Source: a bacterium
GTDB lineage: Bacteria; Armatimonadota; Zipacnadia; Zipacnadales; Zipacnadaceae
Direction of reading: 5' to 3'
Length of the DNA: 64,000 bases
NCBI GenBank assembly: GCA_030603495.1
Contig: JAUVXR010000001.1
Coordinates: 4,993 to 68,992, forward strand
Of the stretch, positions 8,289 through 16,527 are shown piece by piece (position 1 is the stretch's first letter; each line of letters starts with the position of its first letter). A model generated the notes under the pieces. The model was not told where the DNA came from and did not search any database. It saw only the letters and a program-made list of their open reading frames with translations. The translations under genes were made by a program, and so were the position numbers.

Positions 8289-10415
8289 CTAAAGATCTAG
8301 CGACGGCTGACTATCGGACACTCCGGCAGCGTCGTTACTGGGATCTTCCAAGAACTCCCGCAACCGGCGCCACTCGATTCTCTGAGAGATATCCTCACCC
8401 AACTCCTGAATTACCGCCTCTTTGATCCGGTCGAGATCCTTTTGTGCGTGTGCTGCCACAATTACCTGGTCATAACCCATGCCCAGGTCGGCCTCGATAT
8501 TGGCCACCTCGAATTGGGGCTTCTCAGCCGTACCTAGTGCTATTTCCACAGCCAGCTTCTGTCCATTGGCATACACTGCAACGTCAACGGCCTTGTTGCC
8601 CAGAGTTTGGTCTTCGAGGCGAATCTCGCTGCGGGGGTAGCGGGCCCTATAGTACTGCGAAACTGCCCTCTGGAAATACCGATGGGGAAGCCCGCCTTTG
8701 CCTCGAGGGCGGTCTACCTTTACGCGCAGCACCGACGTCAAGTGTTCCCAACCTTCCGCAGTAGGCTGGTATAGAACGATTGCCCTGCCGCGGCGACCGG
8801 TATTGACCTCACAACGTTCAATAAGGCCAGCCTCTTCCAAGCGGGTGCGGATCTGGTTACCCATATAGCCGCTGTAGTCGAGGCGCTCGTCCCGCTGGGT
8901 TACCGTCTCAAATGGATGGCGGGCAATCTCTACCAGGTATTCGGTAGCACGCAACGGCAGTGCCGATTGCGTGGCCTGGTCGCCCTGCTGGGTAGCAGTC
9001 TGCTGAGCGCCGCTTTGTTCAGTGGTCTCGACGACCGGCGGGACGATTGCAGGTGGCTCACTTCGCGGCACATAATCCAGTTGCGCCAAGGACTGCTCGC
9101 GGCGCTCCGCGACCTGCTCTGGAGTTGGTTCGGGAAAATTCAGCTCAGGGAAGCGTACCAGGAAAGCACGGGGGTATGTTCCGCCCATAAACTGGATCGC
9201 GTGGCGGTCGGGAATCTCGCTCAGCCAGTCTTCCTGCTCCTGATTAAGCGAACAGCTGCGAGCGAAGATGCGCTTGGAATTGCCTTCGTCCAGGCGAAAA
9301 CAGGTCTTATAGCGAGTGTTGGCCAGAATCTGCGCCGGGGTCTCCCCCGGCACTTGGTCGGTAAATATCAGCCGGATATCACGCTTCCGCACCCGTCGCG
9401 ATGCCTGTAGCAGCCAGGGCTCGGTTATATCGCTTCTTGGGTCCCACGAAGAGTAGAGCAGATGGGCCTCATCAATGATGATGTTGAGGCGGTCGCCCGG
9501 GTGCAAAGATTTGAAAGTGATAGCTGCGGTGAGGAACGTATCGACAAAGAAAAGCAACTGTTGGTCGCTGAGGCCCCGCAGCCGCAACACCAGTGATCTG
9601 TTGGTCAGCTGTCCCAGGTCAAAGCCTCTGACGCAGTCATAGACCGGACCCATCAGTCGCTGTAGGGCAGCCAGCCGATTCAGCGCGCTCTCTCTATAAT
9701 TGTACCGCCGGCTGAACGGCTTGTAGCGAATCCGCTGTAATGCTGCCAACACATCAGTAAGGGTAGGATAGTTGAGGCTGCCGCCAAATACTCCGTGACT
9801 GTCAAACAGGTCCCAGAGCACCTCACCCAGCAGATTCTCAATGCCCTCGCGAAAGAAAAACGCCTCGCGGGTGACATTGTGAAAGCGGTAGATGGCCGAC
9901 CGCGGGTGCTCTCCCTGAACGGGGGCGAAGGGGTTCCACTTGAAGTCCTCATAATCGATTACGAGAAACTCATCCGCAGGAAACTGTAGCGCTACGTCGT
10001 CGTGCTCGTTCTCGAGGTCCAGAAAAAATACAGTCTGGCCAGCGGCGTGCAGCTGCGTAGCTAGATGCTTTATGCCATAGCTTTTCCCCACCCCTGGTGT
10101 TCCCACCACTAGAGCGTTCCAGTCTTCGTCCGGAGGCAGCGGGCAGGGAAAGCCCACCCCCGCACCGGTGGGCACCCAGGTCCAGGGCATGCCGGCAGCT
10201 GGCAGATCTTCGGGCAGCGGCTGGTCAACCATGAAGGGGTGCGGTTCGTCGACATTGAGAGCGGCTTGCACGGTCAAGGCATGAGCAAGTGAGTTGATCA
10301 TTCCTTCGTCCCCAGACAGATTTGCCGCCGCCACCGCAACTTGGGCTCCGGGATGACTGCGCAGCCCGGATAGGGCTAATAGATCGTTAAGCACAGAATC
10401 TTCGCTAAGCTCCAT
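8289..10415 (-). CDS. FtsK/HerA-superfamily P-loop ATPase (708 aa) with C-terminal winged-helix and restriction-endonuclease-like domain
   Basis: Walker A is VVGTPGVGKSY and Walker B is IIIDEAHLL. The C-terminal roughly 220 aa contain a wHTH-like segment (YLVEIARHP...IRTRLEEAGLIER) followed by a D...EIALGTAEK segment. It is paralogous over its C-terminus to the 679-aa ATPase at 26554-28593 (shared NIEADLG[MA]G[YF]D motif). Confidence 0.8.
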   Translation of the reverse strand: MELSEDSVLNDLLALSGLRSHPGAQVAVAAANLSGDEGMINSLAHALTVQAALNVDEPHPFMVDQPLPEDLPAAGMPWTWVPTGAGVGFPCPLPPDEDWNALVVGTPGVGKSYGIKHLATQLHAAGQTVFFLDLENEHDDVALQFPADEFLVIDYEDFKWNPFAPVQGEHPRSAIYRFHNVTREAFFFREGIENLLGEVLWDLFDSHGVFGGSLNYPTLTDVLAALQRIRYKPFSRRYNYRESALNRLAALQRLMGPVYDCVRGFDLGQLTNRSLVLRLRGLSDQQLLFFVDTFLTAAITFKSLHPGDRLNIIIDEAHLLYSSWDPRSDITEPWLLQASRRVRKRDIRLIFTDQVPGETPAQILANTRYKTCFRLDEGNSKRIFARSCSLNQEQEDWLSEIPDRHAIQFMGGTYPRAFLVRFPELNFPEPTPEQVAERREQSLAQLDYVPRSEPPAIVPPVVETTEQSGAQQTATQQGDQATQSALPLRATEYLVEIARHPFETVTQRDERLDYSGYMGNQIRTRLEEAGLIERCEVNTGRRGRAIVLYQPTAEGWEHLTSVLRVKVDRPRGKGGLPHRYFQRAVSQYYRARYPRSEIRLEDQTLGNKAVDVAVYANGQKLAVEIALGTAEKPQFEVANIEADLGMGYDQVIVAAHAQKDLDRIKEAVIQELGEDISQRIEWRRLREFLEDPSNDAAGVSDSQPSLDL

Positions 10416-10459
10416 GGTAGTCGCTCCTTGTTAAGATGACTTATCGTTGAACTGTTTCG

Positions 10460-10891
10460 CTACGAGACAACAATCCACCACAGCAGTCCGCCGGCAGCGG
10501 CAGCAATCAGCACCGCCCGAATGATAAGCCCTCGTAATCTGGCCCAACTGTGCTCGCGGCACAGCGGCCCGTCCCACCATTCCGTCCGGTCGTCCGGGCA
10601 GATCGGCCGGCCGCAATAAGGATCACTGCAGACTACCTGGGCACAGCGGGCACACAGCGGCCGTCCACAGTCTACGCAGCGAGCTGCGACCTGTTCGCGC
10701 GTGTGGAGTATGGCCATACACCCGGCACACTCCCCGGGCCGACTGACCGTCCGCCGCTCATAACCTCGTGGAGTCAATATTGCTTGCTCAGTATCTTCCA
10801 GTACCGGCTCATCTTGGCTGTCAATTACCACCTGGCGATCGGTGATAATGCCCCCGCGCAGCAGCGCTTCGCGAAAGTCCTGTAAGCGCAT
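10460..10891 (-). CDS. Cys-rich putative zinc-ribbon protein with C-terminal transmembrane anchor (143 aa)
   Basis: Contains multiple CxxC pairs (CAGC, CVDCGRPLCARCAQVVCSDPYCGRPIC). The C-terminus has a hydrophobic helix LIIRAVLIAAAAGGLLWWIVV. It lies in an operon between the ATPase and the E1-like gene. Confidence 0.55.
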   Translation of the reverse strand: MRLQDFREALLRGGIITDRQVVIDSQDEPVLEDTEQAILTPRGYERRTVSRPGECAGCMAILHTREQVAARCVDCGRPLCARCAQVVCSDPYCGRPICPDDRTEWWDGPLCREHSWARLRGLIIRAVLIAAAAGGLLWWIVVS

Positions 10892-10897
10892 CTTTCA

Positions 10898-15132: not shown

Positions 15133-15902
15133 GACTGCTCGCCTCCTGCTAGAAACGCGGCAATTTCCACGGCCCGGCTAGCCGTGGGCGTTAGGATCCG
15201 AACCGACTTGGCACCGGCCTGTTCGAAGGCCTGGCGCCAGTCGCTCACGTGGCGGGTGTACTCGGCCGGAGACCGGTGCATGGCACAAAACCAGATCACG
15301 ATCTGTGTTTGACTGAGGTCAACTCCCTGCAGCGCGGCAGGCCCAAGCCCGGTATCGCGAACATCGCTGAAGATCCACAAACAGCGGCGCGCGCCTGGTT
15401 GCGCAGGCACTGTCGCTATCGAGGCGATTCCCCCGAGCACATCAGTGCCGTGTGATTTGCCCGCACTAGTTGCAAACTGAACCAGGCGCTGGCTGATCTT
15501 GGCCAGAAGTTGTTGCCGGCGCGTCTCAGCCAGCGTGTCGAAAGGACGATCAGATCCCGGTACCCTGATATTGACCAGGTCCTCAGCAGGAGCTGAACGA
15601 GTTTGAATCTGGCGCACAATGAACTGGTCGCCGGCTCGTAGCCGCTCCAGAGCCGGTAGAAGGACTACATTTACGGAAGCTTGTCTGTACGAAAAGGAGC
15701 CGGAATTGTCCACCAGCGCCAGCAACTGCACAGGCTGGCGGTGGGCACCGGGGTCCCAGGCCAGTTCTTCCAACATGCTGCAGCCTGCCAGGATGCTCAC
15801 AACTAGGGCTGAATATGTCATATAGCGCAGCGTTGTGGTCACGGTCTTCGCCTCCCTGGACTCATGTGGCTGGCTCCATATGTACTCTGCGGCTCTGGGC
15901 AT
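15129..15902 (-). CDS. von Willebrand factor A (vWA) domain lipoprotein (257 aa)
   Basis: A lipobox-like signal (SALVVSILAGCSML) is present. The MIDAS motif LALVDNSGSFS (D-x-S-x-S) is followed by typical vWA beta-alpha alternation. Confidence 0.65.
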   Translation of the reverse strand: MPRAAEYIWSQPHESREAKTVTTTLRYMTYSALVVSILAGCSMLEELAWDPGAHRQPVQLLALVDNSGSFSYRQASVNVVLLPALERLRAGDQFIVRQIQTRSAPAEDLVNIRVPGSDRPFDTLAETRRQQLLAKISQRLVQFATSAGKSHGTDVLGGIASIATVPAQPGARRCLWIFSDVRDTGLGPAALQGVDLSQTQIVIWFCAMHRSPAEYTRHVSDWRQAFEQAGAKSVRILTPTASRAVEIAAFLAGGEQS

Positions 15903-16104
15903 CGACGAAAGCTGCGGTTCGCTGTTTCTGTGTGACCGTTAGTCCTTACGGTACGGAGCCGTGCCGCTTCGCCGACCGCTACATTCATCGCTGCTCTCGA
16001 CTGCTCAGCCAGCGTACTCGGCATGGCACCAACTGGTGGTGGGCACACTAGGCGTTCGGGGTGACATGTAGCGCACCTTATTCTCTTCGCCAGATGAATG
16101 ATCT

Positions 16105-16527
16105 TCATGTCAGCTCCTCATTCGGCAGTCGCCTAGCCCAAGTGGGGTTGGCGCCGTTCTGGATTACCCATGGAAGCACGACAACTTGAATGGCTATGTC
16201 CCAAGCCGGCTGAAGCCAAACCCCAGACACAATCTTGCCCGCATAGCTGGCTAGTCGCCCATTCACGCGAAGCGGGTAAGTGGTGGCCAAATCCGAGACC
16301 ACCAACTGACCTGTGCGCGCATCGACGCTGAGCGCCAGTCGGATAACGCTTCCACTGCCACCATTAAGGTTGCAGTGGCAGGCGCCCGCTGTCCCGATTC
16401 TCAACGGTATTCCAGCCTCCACTCGACACAGGAAGCGGCAATTGCAACGCCCTACGACTTTTAACAGCACCGTCTTGATGAATCTGGAACAGCGCGAAGA
16501 CGATGTCTGGTTATCCACTGTCTCCAT
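16105..16527 (-). CDS. hypothetical protein (140 aa), possible first gene of the 16.5-8.3 kb operon
   Basis: Open frame with several Cys and no recognisable motif. Its position is consistent with operon structure. Weak support. Confidence 0.3.
   Translation of the reverse strand: METVDNQTSSSRCSRFIKTVLLKVVGRCNCRFLCRVEAGIPLRIGTAGACHCNLNGGSGSVIRLALSVDARTGQLVVSDLATTYPLRVNGRLASYAGKIVSGVWLQPAWDIAIQVVVLPWVIQNGANPTWARRLPNEELT

What the first reader, a model, noticed from the sequence alone, without database searches (positions are those of the whole stretch)
8289..16527. Composite operon: HerA/FtsK-like ATPase-nuclease, Zn-ribbon membrane protein, E1-like enzyme, polytopic membrane protein and vWA lipoprotein next to an integrase
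Ten co-oriented, tightly packed minus-strand genes combine an ATP-driven DNA-handling module with three membrane proteins, a MIDAS-containing vWA lipoprotein and the E1/small-protein module. The DNA-handling module is a FtsK/HerA P-loop protein with wHTH plus a PD-(D/E)xK-like tail. The operon sits beside a tyrosine integrase. This combination does not match any named defence or secretion system I know of. It is distinct from CBASS-Cap2, Bil/Bub, canonical vWA-MoxR ternary systems and AICE TraB-type transfer. It could be the cargo of an integrative element. Candidate roles are a membrane-anchored, NTP-dependent conflict system or an unusual DNA-transfer apparatus.
Basis: inference. Interest (0 to 1): 0.65.

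Follow-up and report, generated by a model that had tools for sequence, protein, structure and literature searches.

The report
Integrative element with DNA-pump and E1 modules
The operon is the backbone of a roughly 14-kb integrative mobile element whose hallmark is a membrane-tethered HerA-type ATPase fused to DNA-binding and nuclease-like domains. It also carries an unusual ubiquitin-E1-like enzyme next to small proteins that all end in aspartate; the family is widespread in uncultured bacteria and I found no description of it.

Summary
The genes exist as described and the domain calls hold up: a HerA-clade P-loop ATPase with a wHTH and a PD-(D/E)xK-like tail, a tail-anchored Zn-ribbon protein, a 2-TM protein, an E1-like enzyme, a polytopic membrane protein, a vWA/MIDAS lipoprotein and a tyrosine recombinase.

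The operon is not one cargo system. It is modular.

- **Core pair.** The Zn-ribbon protein plus ATPase pair is the conserved core of a large family of integrative elements. There are 222 clusters (50% identity) at E<1e-30. The Zn protein lies upstream in 30/32 loci. A Tyr or Ser recombinase lies downstream in 18/22, often abutting a tRNA or tmRNA gene.
- **E1 module.** It fills a slot that holds Bil/Bub-like Ubl–E2–JAB–E1 cassettes in sister elements. The window's E1 is closest in fold to BubCD. It lacks a JAMM motif, an E2 and a β-grasp Ubl. It sits next to two ~100-aa proteins ending in N-x-F-x-Y-D.
- **Element limits.** Homology with a sister element defines the element as about 7097–21327, with a second integrase at the far end.

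Best reading: a TdtA/TraB-like membrane DNA translocase for the element's own DNA, plus a derived Ubl-like tagging module. The main rival is a single HerA-nuclease/E1 conflict system.

Novelty: new variant of known kinds. Interest: moderate to high.

The parts
7097..8251 (-). Tyrosine recombinase (384 aa), last gene of the operon and downstream end of the element
   Evidence: Pfam Phage_integrase 4.4e-43 plus SAM-like N-domain. XerC/XerD/XerA-like but below the equivalog cut-offs. DNA homology with sister element L001 stops at about 7100.
8289..10415 (-). 708-aa HerA-clade ATPase fused to wHTH and nuclease-like domains; hallmark gene of the element family
   Evidence: Family profile against PDB: HerA 4d2i 4.7e-33, VirB4 1.4e-14, FtsK 5e-9. 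AF2 pLDDT 89.9. 222 clusters at 50% identity with E<1e-30. PADLOC mad8 1.2e-19 over the ATPase domain only.
9141..10130 (-). P-loop ATPase domain (about residues 96-425): Walker A GTPGVGKS, Walker B IIIDEAH
   Evidence: G110, K111 and E316 are invariant or nearly so in 50 sequences. Foldseek matches DndH-C, VirB4, HerA and TrwB at E 1e-12 to 1e-9.
8730..8960 (-). Winged helix-turn-helix (about residues 486-562)
   Evidence: AF2 H-H-H-β-β with pLDDT above 90. Profile hit to MarR 5eri at 2e-4. Pfam MarR_2 0.051.
8346..8702 (-). PD-(D/E)xK-like C-terminal domain (about residues 572-690) with invariant E601, D611 and E624 and the GKGG..H motif
   Evidence: Invariant columns. α-βββ-α-β topology. 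PF27227 Endonuc-like_C (weak) on homologue L004. No profile hit to a solved nuclease.
10460..10891 (-). Tail-anchored Cys-rich Zn-ribbon/B-box-like membrane protein (143 aa); obligate partner of the ATPase
   Evidence: 10 Cys and a TM at residues 123-141. A homologue lies within 2 kb upstream of the ATPase in 30 of 32 loci.
10898..11233 (-). Small 2-TM protein (111 aa)
   Evidence: TMs at 45-63 and 77-95. Homologues in L001 (two copies) and L003. Analogous small TM ORFs lie between the Zn protein and the ATPase in other subfamilies.
11508..13172 (-). E1-like adenylating enzyme (554 aa): unknown N-domain (about 1-145), ThiF/E1 core (about 150-405, two CxxC pairs), unknown C-domain
   Evidence: Pfam ThiF 8e-11. 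Invariant GxGRxG, DxD..E..RN, K210 and D256. Foldseek top hit is Citrobacter BubCD at 8e-15, then UBA5, MccB, Cap2 and ThiF. No JAMM motif and no conserved Cys outside C266 and the CxxC pairs.
13247..13558 (-). Small protein sp103 ending ...ANQFAYD; candidate E1 substrate (paralogue of sp98 in its tail only)
   Evidence: The C-terminal 27 residues resemble sp98. No Pfam hit.
13888..14184 (-). Small protein sp98 ending ...SNRFSYD; candidate E1 substrate
   Evidence: Homologues directly upstream of the E1 in L004 (...GNRFAYD) and L005/L062 (...ANRYAQD). The L007 counterpart ends ...LFPGD.
13628..13825 (-). 65-aa ORF between the two small proteins; reality uncertain
   Evidence: No homologue in related loci.
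14215..15132 (-). Polytopic membrane protein (305 aa, 6-7 TM)
   Evidence: Hydropathy. Homologues only in L004 and L005/L062, always next to the vWA and sp genes.
15129..15902 (-). vWA lipoprotein (257 aa) with lipobox LAGC and a complete MIDAS motif
   Evidence: Invariant C41, D65xS67xS69, T153-D154 and S179-D180. The L005 homologue hits VWA_CoxE at 3.2e-5.
16105..16527 (-). First gene of the operon (140 aa, unknown function)
   Evidence: Homologue in L001 at the same position.
16706..16734 (-). Promoter-like site TTTCCA-17-TGxTATAAT upstream of the operon, in the divergent region shared with p235
   Evidence: a consensus match only.
16849..17556 (+). Divergently transcribed 235-aa protein, conserved with the module
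   Evidence: 67% identical in L001. Homologue in L005/L062 upstream of the vWA gene.
17513..19333 (-). TPR protein with C-terminal OmpR-type wHTH (606 aa); putative regulator of the element
   Evidence: Pfam TPR_12 and Trans_reg_C, both below cut-off. 48% identical in L001.
19392..20045 (+). 217-aa wHTH-like protein
   Evidence: Weak HxlR/MarR/PadR hits. 80% identical in L001.
20032..21327 (-). Second tyrosine recombinase (431 aa); upstream end of the element
   Evidence: Phage_integrase 8.6e-13. 87% identical in L001. DNA homology with L001 stops at about 21317.

Best explanation
Window 8289-16527 is the long operon of an integrative mobile element of about 14.2 kb (about 7097-21327) that has a tyrosine recombinase gene at each end. 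The operon is built from two modules.

**Module 1: Zn-ribbon protein, 2-TM protein and 708-aa ATPase.** This is the element family's conserved core. The ATPase is a HerA-clade, presumably hexameric, dsDNA translocase. Its wHTH would supply DNA recognition and its PD-(D/E)xK-like domain would nick or cut. The tail-anchored Zn-ribbon partner would hold it at the cytoplasmic membrane. I infer that it processes the excised element and pumps it out of the donor cell. This would be relaxase-free and T4SS-free DNA donation, as shown for the HerA-like TdtA plus NurA of Thermus ICETh1 and, by analogy, for TraB of actinomycete AICEs.

**Module 2: vWA lipoprotein, polytopic membrane protein, two small proteins and the E1-like enzyme.** This is an accessory cassette derived from bacterial ubiquitin-like conjugation systems (Bil/Bub type), which occupy the same slot in sister elements. 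The E1 keeps a complete adenylation site but has no catalytic cysteine, no JAB peptidase motif and no E2 partner. I infer that it adenylates the C-terminal Asp of the ~100-aa helix-plus-disordered-tail proteins (motif N-x-[FY]-x-[YQ]-D). The tags would then be passed to a target at the membrane, either for exclusion or defence or to control transfer.

**Shown:** gene content, domain folds, conserved catalytic residues, conserved neighbourhoods, and integration next to tRNA/tmRNA genes in relatives.

**Inferred:** hexamer formation, membrane tethering, DNA export, adenylation of the Asp terminus, and the targets.
For: **Element boundaries and backbone.**
- The sister element L001 shares both integrases, p217, the TPR regulator, p235, orf140, tm111, the Zn protein and the ATPase. 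DNA homology ends at about 7100 and about 21317.

**Core status of the Zn protein and ATPase.**
- The Zn protein lies upstream of the ATPase in 30/32 loci.
- A Tyr or large Ser recombinase starts within 5 kb downstream in 18/22 loci.
- tRNA or tmRNA genes sit immediately after the recombinase in L006, L007, L011, L012, L024, L029, L031, L034, L045, L049 and L060.
- One subfamily has the order Zn, TM, ATPase, ~220 aa, Xis-like, Int, tRNA.
- The L011 ATPase is fused to an excisionase-type HTH_17.

**ATPase.**
- It looks competent and belongs to the HerA clade.
- It has a wHTH and a nuclease-like domain with invariant E601, D611 and E624.

**Precedent.** ICETh1 is a 14-kb element in a tRNA gene with a XerC-like integrase. 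Its membrane-bound hexameric HerA-like TdtA, NurA nuclease and REase are required for DNA donation (PMC5365140). The pT26-2 core module is a second analogue (PMC6972569).

**No alternative machinery.** The Pfam, NCBIfam and PHROG scans of the main element ORFs (17 in all, not every ORF in every library) gave no relaxase, T4SS, capsid or terminase hit.

**E1 module.**
- The adenylation residues are conserved and the fold is closest to BubCD.
- BubCD also lacks a catalytic Cys (bioRxiv 10.1101/2024.11.21.623953).
- The slot holds Ubl-E2-JAB-E1 in L001, L023/24, L049 and L063/64, and a JAB::E1 fusion in L020.
- The full order vWA, TM, sp, E1, Zn, TM, ATPase recurs in L004 and L062, which carry serine recombinases instead.
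- The small proteins upstream of the E1 all end in Asp within a shared motif.
Against: - No experiment exists and no transfer function has been shown for any family member.
- By profile the ATPase is at least as close to defence-associated HerAs (Sir2-HerA, DUF4297-HerA, DptH) as to conjugative ATPases. It also hits PADLOC mad8.
- No att direct repeats were found for the window element or for the relatives, so mobility is inferred from synteny breaks only.
- No TraB-clt-like clustered 8-mer repeats were found.
- The nuclease fold rests on topology and conserved acidic residues. No profile match to a solved nuclease was obtained.
- The E1 sits immediately upstream of the Zn-ATPase pair in about nine independent elements, with three different E1 architectures. 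This hints at a functional coupling that the two-module reading does not explain.
- The C-terminal-Asp motif rests on five proteins from four loci, three of which are homologues of one another.
- The N- and C-terminal domains of the E1 are poorly modelled (pLDDT below 50).
Confidence: 0.5

Rival explanations
1. The whole operon is one membrane-anchored, NTP-dependent conflict (anti-phage or anti-plasmid) system carried by the element. The E1 cassette tags invader or sentinel proteins. The vWA and membrane proteins sense at the envelope. The HerA-nuclease, held at the membrane by the Zn protein, degrades invading or host DNA.
For: - HerA-clade ATPases partner with effectors in known defence complexes (8j4u, 8xau, 9c1m, 7es4).
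- The ATPase domain hits PADLOC mad8 at 1.2e-19.
- Bil, Bub and CBASS-Cap2 E1 systems are antiphage or so inferred, and the E1 fold is closest to BubCD.
- The E1 is directly upstream of the Zn-ATPase pair in about 9 elements from at least three phyla, with three E1 architectures.
- Caspase-like Peptidase_C14, TPR and SNF2/methylase genes occur in sister elements.
- The window lies in a region rich in other defence- or mobile-like genes.
Against: - The Zn-ATPase pair occurs without any E1 in 13 of 20 loci with enough upstream sequence.
- It holds a fixed position next to xis/int or a serine recombinase whatever the upstream content, and one member is fused to an excisionase HTH. Defence cargo in mobile-element hotspots is normally the variable part, not the invariant one.
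- No other mad genes are present, and no further PADLOC hits were obtained for the other nine proteins.
Confidence: 0.3
2. The ATPase-wHTH-nuclease is a replication, resolution or maintenance protein of the excised element. It would be an origin-binding nickase-helicase or a dimer or junction resolver acting with the recombinase. It would not be a transfer motor.
For: - Its position just upstream of xis/int resembles the rep-xis-int operons of actinomycete integrative elements (own knowledge).
- A wHTH plus nuclease plus ring ATPase is a plausible initiator architecture.
- In L004 and L062 it sits next to a PriCT_1 primase-like gene.
- The window element has no other candidate replication gene.
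Against: - To my knowledge no HerA/FtsK-clade protein is known as a replication initiator.
- The constant pairing with a tail-anchored membrane protein and small TM proteins points to a membrane-located activity.
- Elements with their own primase still keep it.
Confidence: 0.12
3. The element is a provirus or phage satellite, and the ATPase is a genome-packaging motor (FtsK/HerA-type packaging ATPase with a terminase-like nuclease).
For: - Packaging ATPases of membrane-containing viruses belong to the FtsK-HerA superfamily. The family profile hits STIV B204 weakly and the model matches the PH1 ATPase (TMt 0.74, E 4e-8).
- A weak PHROG terminase hit covers the P-loop only.
- Several small membrane proteins are present.
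Against: - No capsid, portal or other virion gene was found in the element or in sister elements.
- No relative was found in 2.9 million IMG/VR contigs with the close-family query.
- Viral matches are generic P-loop similarities.
- At 708 aa with a wHTH, the protein is unlike the 200-250-aa viral packaging ATPases.
Confidence: 0.04

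Closest known systems
ICETh1 DNA secretion system of Thermus thermophilus (TdtA HerA-like ATPase + NurA + REase; PMC5365140)
   Same: An element of about 14 kb with a XerC-family integrase and a HerA-like ATPase that works with a nuclease. TdtA is membrane-associated, whereas membrane location here is inferred from the Zn partner. 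There is no relaxase and no T4SS. Relatives of the window element integrate at tRNA genes, as ICETh1 does.
   Different: The nuclease here is a PD-(D/E)xK-like domain fused to the ATPase, not a separate NurA. A wHTH and an obligate tail-anchored Zn-ribbon partner are added. An E1 cassette is present. No function has been shown.
TraB/TraSA dsDNA translocases of actinomycete integrative and conjugative elements (AICEs, e.g. pSAM2)
   Same: A single ring ATPase with a C-terminal wHTH on a 9-24-kb integrative element next to xis/int, accompanied by small membrane proteins.
   Different: TraB is FtsK-clade. The window ATPase has no FtsK_SpoIIIE hit, and its family is HerA/DUF87-like (31/50 against 5/50 members). 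It carries a nuclease-like domain. No clt-like repeats were found.
Type I Bub pathway (BubAB, BubCD peptidase-E1 fusion, BubE; bioRxiv 10.1101/2024.11.21.623953) and Bil (BilABCD)
   Same: The E1 fold is closest to BubCD. It has an N-terminal domain fused to the E1 and no catalytic cysteine. Sister elements carry a JAB::E1 fusion (L020) or Ubl-E2-JAB-E1 (L001, L024, L049, L063) in the same slot.
   Different: The window E1 has no JAMM motif. The element has no E2, no β-grasp Ubl with a terminal Gly and no DUF6527/BubE. Instead it has ~100-aa non-β-grasp proteins ending in Asp, plus a vWA lipoprotein and a polytopic membrane protein.
Defence-associated HerA complexes (Sir2-HerA, DUF4297-HerA, DptH/DndH, MADS mad8)
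   Same: The HerA-clade ATPase domain gives its best profile and fold matches among these. An ATPase is coupled to a nuclease or effector.
   Different: The effector is fused rather than separate. The gene has a constant context next to recombinases inside integrative elements. None of the partner genes (Sir2, DUF4297, DptFG, mad1-7) is present.
pT26-2 family of archaeal integrated plasmids (PMC6972569)
   Same: tRNA-integrating elements whose conserved core is a HerA/VirB4-like ATPase plus several membrane proteins. That core is hypothesised to be a novel DNA-transfer device. The replication and integration modules are variable.
   Different: The hosts are archaeal, the core has seven genes, no sequence relationship was tested, and there is no nuclease/wHTH fusion or E1 cassette.
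MccB/microcin C biosynthesis
   Same: An E1-like enzyme acts on the C-terminus of a ribosomal non-Ubl peptide encoded next to it. MccB is among the structural matches.
   Different: MccA substrates end in Asn, which the N-P chemistry requires (own knowledge), and are 7-56 aa long. Here the terminus is Asp and the proteins are about 100 aa. No MccC/D/E/F-like genes are present.

Membership tests
FtsK-HerA superfamily, HerA clade | P-loop with Walker A/B and profile similarity to HerA stronger than to FtsK or VirD4 | tested here: met
   GKS and DEAH are conserved. The family profile gives HerA 4d2i 4.7e-33, VirB4 1.4e-14, TrwB-type 4e-10 and FtsK 5e-9. DUF87 hits 31/50 members. By fold alone HerA, VirB4, DndH-C and TrwB are about equidistant.
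AICE TraB-type conjugative translocase | FtsK_SpoIIIE-type motor domain | tested here: not met
   The window protein has no FtsK_SpoIIIE hit. Only 5/50 family members hit it weakly.
AICE TraB-type conjugative translocase | C-terminal wHTH that recognises clustered 8-bp clt repeats | tested here: inconclusive
   A wHTH is present. No cluster of at least 4 identical 8-mers within 300 bp was found in 6900-21500. Degenerate repeats were not tested.
T4SS-based ICE (VirB4/VirD4 + relaxase) | Relaxase and mating-pair-formation genes in the element | tested here: not met
   Seventeen main ORFs between 7097 and 21327 were scanned, 14 of them in Pfam. None hit a relaxase or T4SS family above noise in Pfam, NCBIfam or PHROGs.
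ICETh1/TdtA-type DNA secretion system | HerA-like ATPase plus nuclease on a small integrase-bearing element | tested here: met
   The architecture matches, although the nuclease is a fused PD-(D/E)xK-like domain, not NurA.
ICETh1/TdtA-type DNA secretion system | Orthology to TdtA and an ATPase requirement for DNA donation | not testable with these tools
The requirement for donation is an experimental property.
Bub type I | JAB/JAMM peptidase fused to an E1 that lacks a crossover-loop cysteine | tested here: not met
   The E1 lacks a conserved Cys apart from C266 and the CxxC Zn pairs and is closest to BubCD. The N-domain has no HxH...S..D motif. The related L020 E1 does have one.
Bub type I | Ubl-E2 fusion (BubAB) with a terminal Gly, and a DUF6527 protease (BubE) | tested here: not met
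   No β-grasp, E2 or DUF6527 hit was obtained in the operon. The small proteins end in Asp.
Bil (BilABCD) | Ubl, E2, JAB and an E1 with a Cys domain | tested here: not met
   These are absent from the window. Sister element L001 has the gene order 78-aa Ubl-like, 123 aa, JAB (HSHP...SGID), E1, but its own membership was not established.
CBASS type II (Cap2) | CD-NTase plus an E2-E1 fusion | tested here: not met
   Only weak E1-domain hits to PADLOC E1-E2 models were found (at best 5e-6, E1 part only). There is no CD-NTase.
MADS | Eight-gene mad1-mad8 set including a methyltransferase | tested here: not met
   Only a mad8-like ATPase-domain hit was found. The other nine proteins have no PADLOC hit.
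Microcin C-like (MccB) | Precursor ending in Asn | tested here: not met
   All candidate substrates end in Asp.
vWA-MoxR ternary systems | vWA with MIDAS together with a MoxR AAA+ ATPase | tested here: not met
   The MIDAS motif is present. No MoxR or AAA+ hit was obtained in the element.
Tyrosine recombinases | Phage_integrase catalytic domain | tested here: met
   4.4e-43 for 7097-8251 and 8.6e-13 for 20032-21327. The XerC/D equivalog cut-offs are not reached.

The most novel reading that the evidence does not exclude
An E1-type enzyme has been re-purposed to activate the C-terminal aspartate of intrinsically disordered, non-β-grasp small proteins. This would be a Pup-like tag made by ubiquitin-E1 chemistry without E2 or cysteine relays. 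The tagging system would be functionally coupled, at the membrane, to a HerA-nuclease DNA pump that is the sole transfer machine of a previously unrecognised, phylum-spanning family of minimal conjugative elements.
Probability: 0.2. Interest if true: 0.85.

Novelty: new variant of a known kind. Interest (0 to 1): 0.6.

Why it matters
**A possible simple route of gene transfer in uncultured phyla.** If the Zn-ribbon/HerA-wHTH-nuclease pair is a self-contained DNA-donation machine, a simple relaxase-free route of horizontal transfer would extend beyond Thermus. It would reach Chloroflexota, Armatimonadota, Desulfobacterota-like and other uncultured lineages, where no conjugation systems are recognised. 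The pair also gives a two-gene marker for finding such elements.

**A wider substrate range for E1 enzymes.** The E1 module would show that bacterial ubiquitin-like machinery can swap its β-grasp tag for a disordered protein with an Asp terminus. That would widen the known substrate range of E1 enzymes. It would also give a testable link between Ubl-type tagging and mobile-element biology, which has been an open question since E1/JAB cassettes were first noted on conjugative elements (PMC1779556).

Tried and rejected
1. **Exact look-up of the window ATPase.** Nothing on record.
2. **Word-indexed homologue searches.** They returned only 4-8 relatives each. The exhaustive representative search was needed.
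3. **Searches with broad alignments.** The genome-contig scan with A1 gave only 2 loci. The viral-contig scan gave none. The first metagenome scan, with the E1 alignment, gave none.
4. **att sites.** No direct or inverted repeats flank the window element. No tRNA or tmRNA 3'-end repeats lie upstream in 16 related loci. The window has no tRNA gene.
5. **clt-like repeats.** None found.
6. **Nuclease domain.** The profile of the C-terminal domain against PDB gave no significant hit. Whole-protein Foldseek was swamped by P-loop matches. afdb50 was unavailable.
7. **vWA profile against PDB.** No hit.
8. **E1 end domains.** The AF2 model of the E1 has low confidence outside the core, so its N- and C-domains stay unassigned.
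9. **Provirus reading rejected.** No virion genes and no PHROG signal.
10. **MADS, CBASS, Bil, Bub, MccB and vWA-MoxR membership rejected.** See the membership tests.
11. **Dehalococcoides ssrA islands.** Considered because relatives integrate at tmRNA with a serine recombinase. Their described integration module (dsiA, dsiB, parB, mom) does not include this ATPase.
12. **Named E1 families.** NCBIfam naming of the E1s in sister elements was all below cut-off.

Full report
**1. What is in the sequence**

The minus strand between 8289 and 16527 carries a tightly packed series of ORFs:

| Coordinates | Length (aa) | Call |
|---|---|---|
| 16105-16527 | 140 | unknown |
| 15129-15902 | 257 | vWA lipoprotein |
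| 14215-15132 | 305 | 6-7 TM protein |
| 13888-14184 | 98 | small protein sp98 |
| 13628-13825 | 65 | doubtful ORF |
| 13247-13558 | 103 | small protein sp103 |
| 11508-13172 | 554 | E1-like enzyme |
| 10898-11233 | 111 | 2-TM protein |
| 10460-10891 | 143 | Zn-ribbon protein, C-terminal TM |
| 8289-10415 | 708 | ATPase |

A 384-aa tyrosine recombinase follows at 7097-8251. A good promoter-like site (TTTCCA-17-TGxTATAAT, 16734-16706) precedes the first gene. There is no convincing internal terminator.

The single-sequence family scans give Phage_integrase at 4e-43 and ThiF at 8e-11. They give only weak HerA/AAA hits for the ATPase and nothing for the others. PADLOC gives a mad8 hit (1.2e-19) confined to the ATPase domain and weak E1-E2 hits confined to the E1 core.

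**2. The ATPase**

An exhaustive profile search found 2738 relatives, 222 of them at E<1e-30. Most are 650-750 aa long and align end to end.

In a 50-sequence alignment the invariant residues are G110 and K111 (Walker A) plus E601, D611 and E624. Walker B E316, Q354 and the GKGG..H578 motif are nearly invariant.

The family profile matches solved structures in this order:
- HerA 4d2i at 4.7e-33, followed by the defence-associated HerAs;
- VirB4 at 1.4e-14;
- DptH at 3.8e-13;
- TrwB-type coupling proteins at about 4e-10;
- FtsK at about 5e-9.

The same search matches a MarR-type wHTH (5eri) at 2e-4. Pfam DUF87 hits 31/50 members and FtsK_SpoIIIE hits 5/50.

The AlphaFold model built with this alignment is confident (pLDDT 89.9). 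Its parts are:
- an N-terminal helical region;
- the P-loop domain;
- a disordered linker (457-484);
- a wHTH (488-562);
- a C-terminal α-βββ-α-β-α-β domain (576-690).

The conserved acidic residues sit on the β-strands of that last domain in the arrangement expected for a PD-(D/E)xK nuclease. A family member (L004) carries the precomputed Pfam family Endonuc-like_C, marked weak. No profile hit to a solved nuclease was obtained, so the nuclease assignment is well supported but not proven.

By whole-model Foldseek the motor is about equidistant from DndH-C, VirB4, HerA and TrwB. Viral matches are generic.

**3. Genomic context**

I collected 60 related loci through exact-protein look-ups and a metagenome scan. 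I annotated them with HMMs built iteratively from the window's proteins.

| Feature | Count |
|---|---|
| Zn-ribbon protein homologue within 2 kb upstream of the ATPase | 30/32 loci with at least 1 kb upstream |
| Tyr or large Ser recombinase starting within 5 kb downstream | 18/22 loci with at least 3 kb downstream |
| E1 within 4.5 kb upstream | 7/20 loci with at least 4 kb upstream |

In eleven loci a tRNA or tmRNA gene sits directly after the recombinase. In L012 the serine recombinase ORF overlaps the 3' end of the tmRNA gene.

One large subfamily has the order Zn, small TM, ATPase, ~220 aa, Xis-like HTH, Int, tRNA. In L011 the ATPase is itself fused to an excisionase-type HTH_17.

The named hosts are Chloroflexota, Armatimonadota (Ca. 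Zipacnadia) and Syntrophorhabdaceae MAGs.

The Zn-ATPase pair is therefore the invariant core of a family of integrative elements. It is not cargo.

**4. The window element**

The closest element is L001 (MAG CSMAG_2722). Identities to the window proteins are:

| Protein | Identity |
|---|---|
| int431 | 87% |
| p217 | 80% |
| int384 | 78% |
| p235 | 67% |
| ATPase | 58% |
| Zn protein | 52% |
| TPR/wHTH regulator | 48% |
| orf140 | 39% |
| tm111 (two copies in L001) | 36% |

DNA similarity stops at window positions of about 7100 and about 21317, and the flanks are unrelated. This defines a 14.2-kb element with a tyrosine recombinase at each end.

No att repeats and no tRNA gene were found. 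Mobility is therefore inferred, not shown.

**5. The E1 module**

Between orf140 and tm111, L001 has no homologue of the window's vWA, TM, sp and E1 genes. It has instead a 78-aa Ubl-like ORF, a 123-aa ORF, a JAB peptidase (HSHP...SGID) and a 277-aa E1. That is a Bil-like gene order.

The same slot is filled as follows in other elements:
- E2-like, JAB and E1 in L023/24, L049 and L063/64;
- an E2-like ORF plus a JAB::E1 fusion (JAMM motif at residues 92-106) in L020;
- the window-type E1 (43-46% identical) in L004, L005/L062 and, more distantly, L007.

L004 and L062 reproduce the whole window order: vWA, polytopic TM, small protein, E1, Zn, small TM, ATPase. Their elements end in a PriCT_1 primase-like gene and a large serine recombinase.

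The window E1 keeps the adenylation signature (GxGRxG, DxD..E..RN, K210, D256) and two CxxC pairs. Apart from C266 and those pairs it has no conserved cysteine. It has no JAMM motif.

Its model is confident only in the core. That core is closest to the Citrobacter BubCD peptidase-E1 fusion (8e-15), ahead of UBA5, MccB, Cap2 and ThiF. BubCD likewise lacks a catalytic cysteine and works through oxyester intermediates.

The ORFs immediately upstream of window-type E1s are ~85-108-aa proteins with one predicted amphipathic helix and a polar tail. Their C-termini are:
- ...ANQFAYD and ...SNRFSYD in the window;
- ...GNRFAYD in L004;
- ...ANRYAQD in L005/L062;
- ...LFPGD in L007.

The window's two copies resemble each other only in the last ~27 residues. 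That argues for selection on the tail.

I infer that these are the E1's substrates and that the terminal Asp is adenylated. This is not shown.

The vWA protein has a conserved lipobox and a full MIDAS motif, and one homologue hits VWA_CoxE weakly. Together with the polytopic protein it is specific to this E1 variant.

**6. Mechanism**

The best-supported reading is modular.

*Core pair.* The core pair has these properties:
- a competent HerA-type ring ATPase;
- a sequence-reading wHTH;
- a nuclease-like domain;
- a constant tail-anchored membrane partner;
- a constant position beside xis/int.

The scans of the main element ORFs found no relaxase, T4SS, capsid or replication gene.

These are the properties expected of a minimal DNA-donation machine. 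The experimental precedent is ICETh1 of Thermus thermophilus. ICETh1 is a 14-kb tRNA-integrated element with a XerC-like integrase. Its membrane-bound hexameric HerA-like TdtA, NurA nuclease and restriction enzyme are needed to push DNA out of donors (PMC5365140). TraB of actinomycete elements and the pT26-2 core module are further analogues.

*E1 cassette.* It is a derived member of the Ubl-conjugation systems that have long been noted on mobile elements (PMC1779556). It has a non-catalytic N-domain in place of JAB and a disordered Asp-terminated tag in place of a β-grasp Ubl.

*Main rival (0.3).* The whole operon may be one conflict system. HerA-effector complexes and E1 cassettes are both established defence themes. 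The repeated E1-ATPase adjacency across phyla, with three different E1 architectures, suggests a coupling that the modular reading leaves unexplained. Against this, the pair is invariant, sits in a fixed position, and occurs without an E1 in 13 of 20 loci.

*Minor alternatives.* A replication or resolution role (0.12) and a packaging role (0.04) are less likely.

**7. Novelty**

The literature searches found no description of this ATPase architecture, of its Zn-ribbon partner, or of E1 enzymes paired with Asp-terminated non-Ubl proteins. The held library is incomplete, so absence is not proof.

Each component is a variant of a known kind: a HerA-driven integrative element and a Bub/Bil-like E1 cassette. 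The combination and the substrate type are new. I rate it a new variant of a known kind, with interest 0.6.

Noticed in passing
window 26554-28593 (-): A second HerA-family ATPase (679 aa), unrelated in architecture to the 708-aa one. NCBIfam gives CedD DNA-translocating ATPase at 1.2e-21 and HerA_antiphage at 3e-7. Its neighbours were not examined.
   Followed up: no
window 40210-43974 (-): A 1254-aa SMC/Rad50-like coiled-coil ATPase with weak NCBIfam hits. Large unannotated ORFs follow at 43975-45900 and 46734-48614. It may be another defence or mobile module.
   Followed up: no
window ~29300-31000: About 1.7 kb has no ORF of 180 aa or more and an extreme GC skew of -0.33. C-rich 17-18-nt tandem repeats lie at 29529-29667. 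There is no Rfam match. This is unexplained.
   Followed up: partly
window 50841-51347 (-): Bacterial RNase P RNA class A at 278 bits. It spans 507 nt against a 367-position model, so it carries sizeable insertions.
   Followed up: no
window 55871-57112 (+) and 55000-64000: A phage portal protein (PBSX/HK97 type, 2.8e-45). G+C rises from about 0.55 to 0.61-0.65 from about 55 kb onwards. This is probably a prophage or foreign segment.
   Followed up: no
window 51514-53190 (+): A 558-aa protein with a GHKL/sacsin-like ATP-binding N-terminus and a weak BbrUII/HgiDII restriction-enzyme hit.
   Followed up: no
window 5568-6419 (-) and 6649-6903 (-): A LytTR-type response regulator and a small XRE-like HTH ORF lie just beyond the downstream end of the element. 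It is unclear whether the XRE-like ORF belongs to the element.
   Followed up: no
L020 7429-9428: The E1 here is a JAB::E1 fusion (HSHPWANQVRFSSID). It is preceded by a 174-aa ORF with a UBC-like ...PVGYPQVPPPRFYIP... motif. This is a Type-I-Bub-like architecture directly upstream of the Zn-ATPase pair.
   Followed up: partly
L011 10001-13704: An 830-aa ATPase is fused at its C-terminus to an excisionase-type HTH_17. It overlaps the start of a tyrosine integrase, which abuts tRNA-Lys.
   Followed up: partly
L008 1-2536; L063 1-2178: Some related elements carry additional DUF87/FtsK-like ATPases with a ~165-aa partner (DUF8104 in L008) on the opposite strand. This may be a second translocase system.
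   Followed up: no
L005/L062 3771-6856; L007 3555-6672: A conserved trio of a caspase-like Peptidase_C14 (~545 aa), a ~180-aa protein and a ~290-aa protein with a wHTH-like C-terminus lies upstream of the E1 module in two elements. It may be a regulatory or effector module.
   Followed up: no
L001 14489-20639: Immediately outside the sister element lies a RiPP-like cluster with two PqqD-domain proteins, two radical-SAM/SPASM enzymes and ScmC. It is unrelated to the finding.
   Followed up: no
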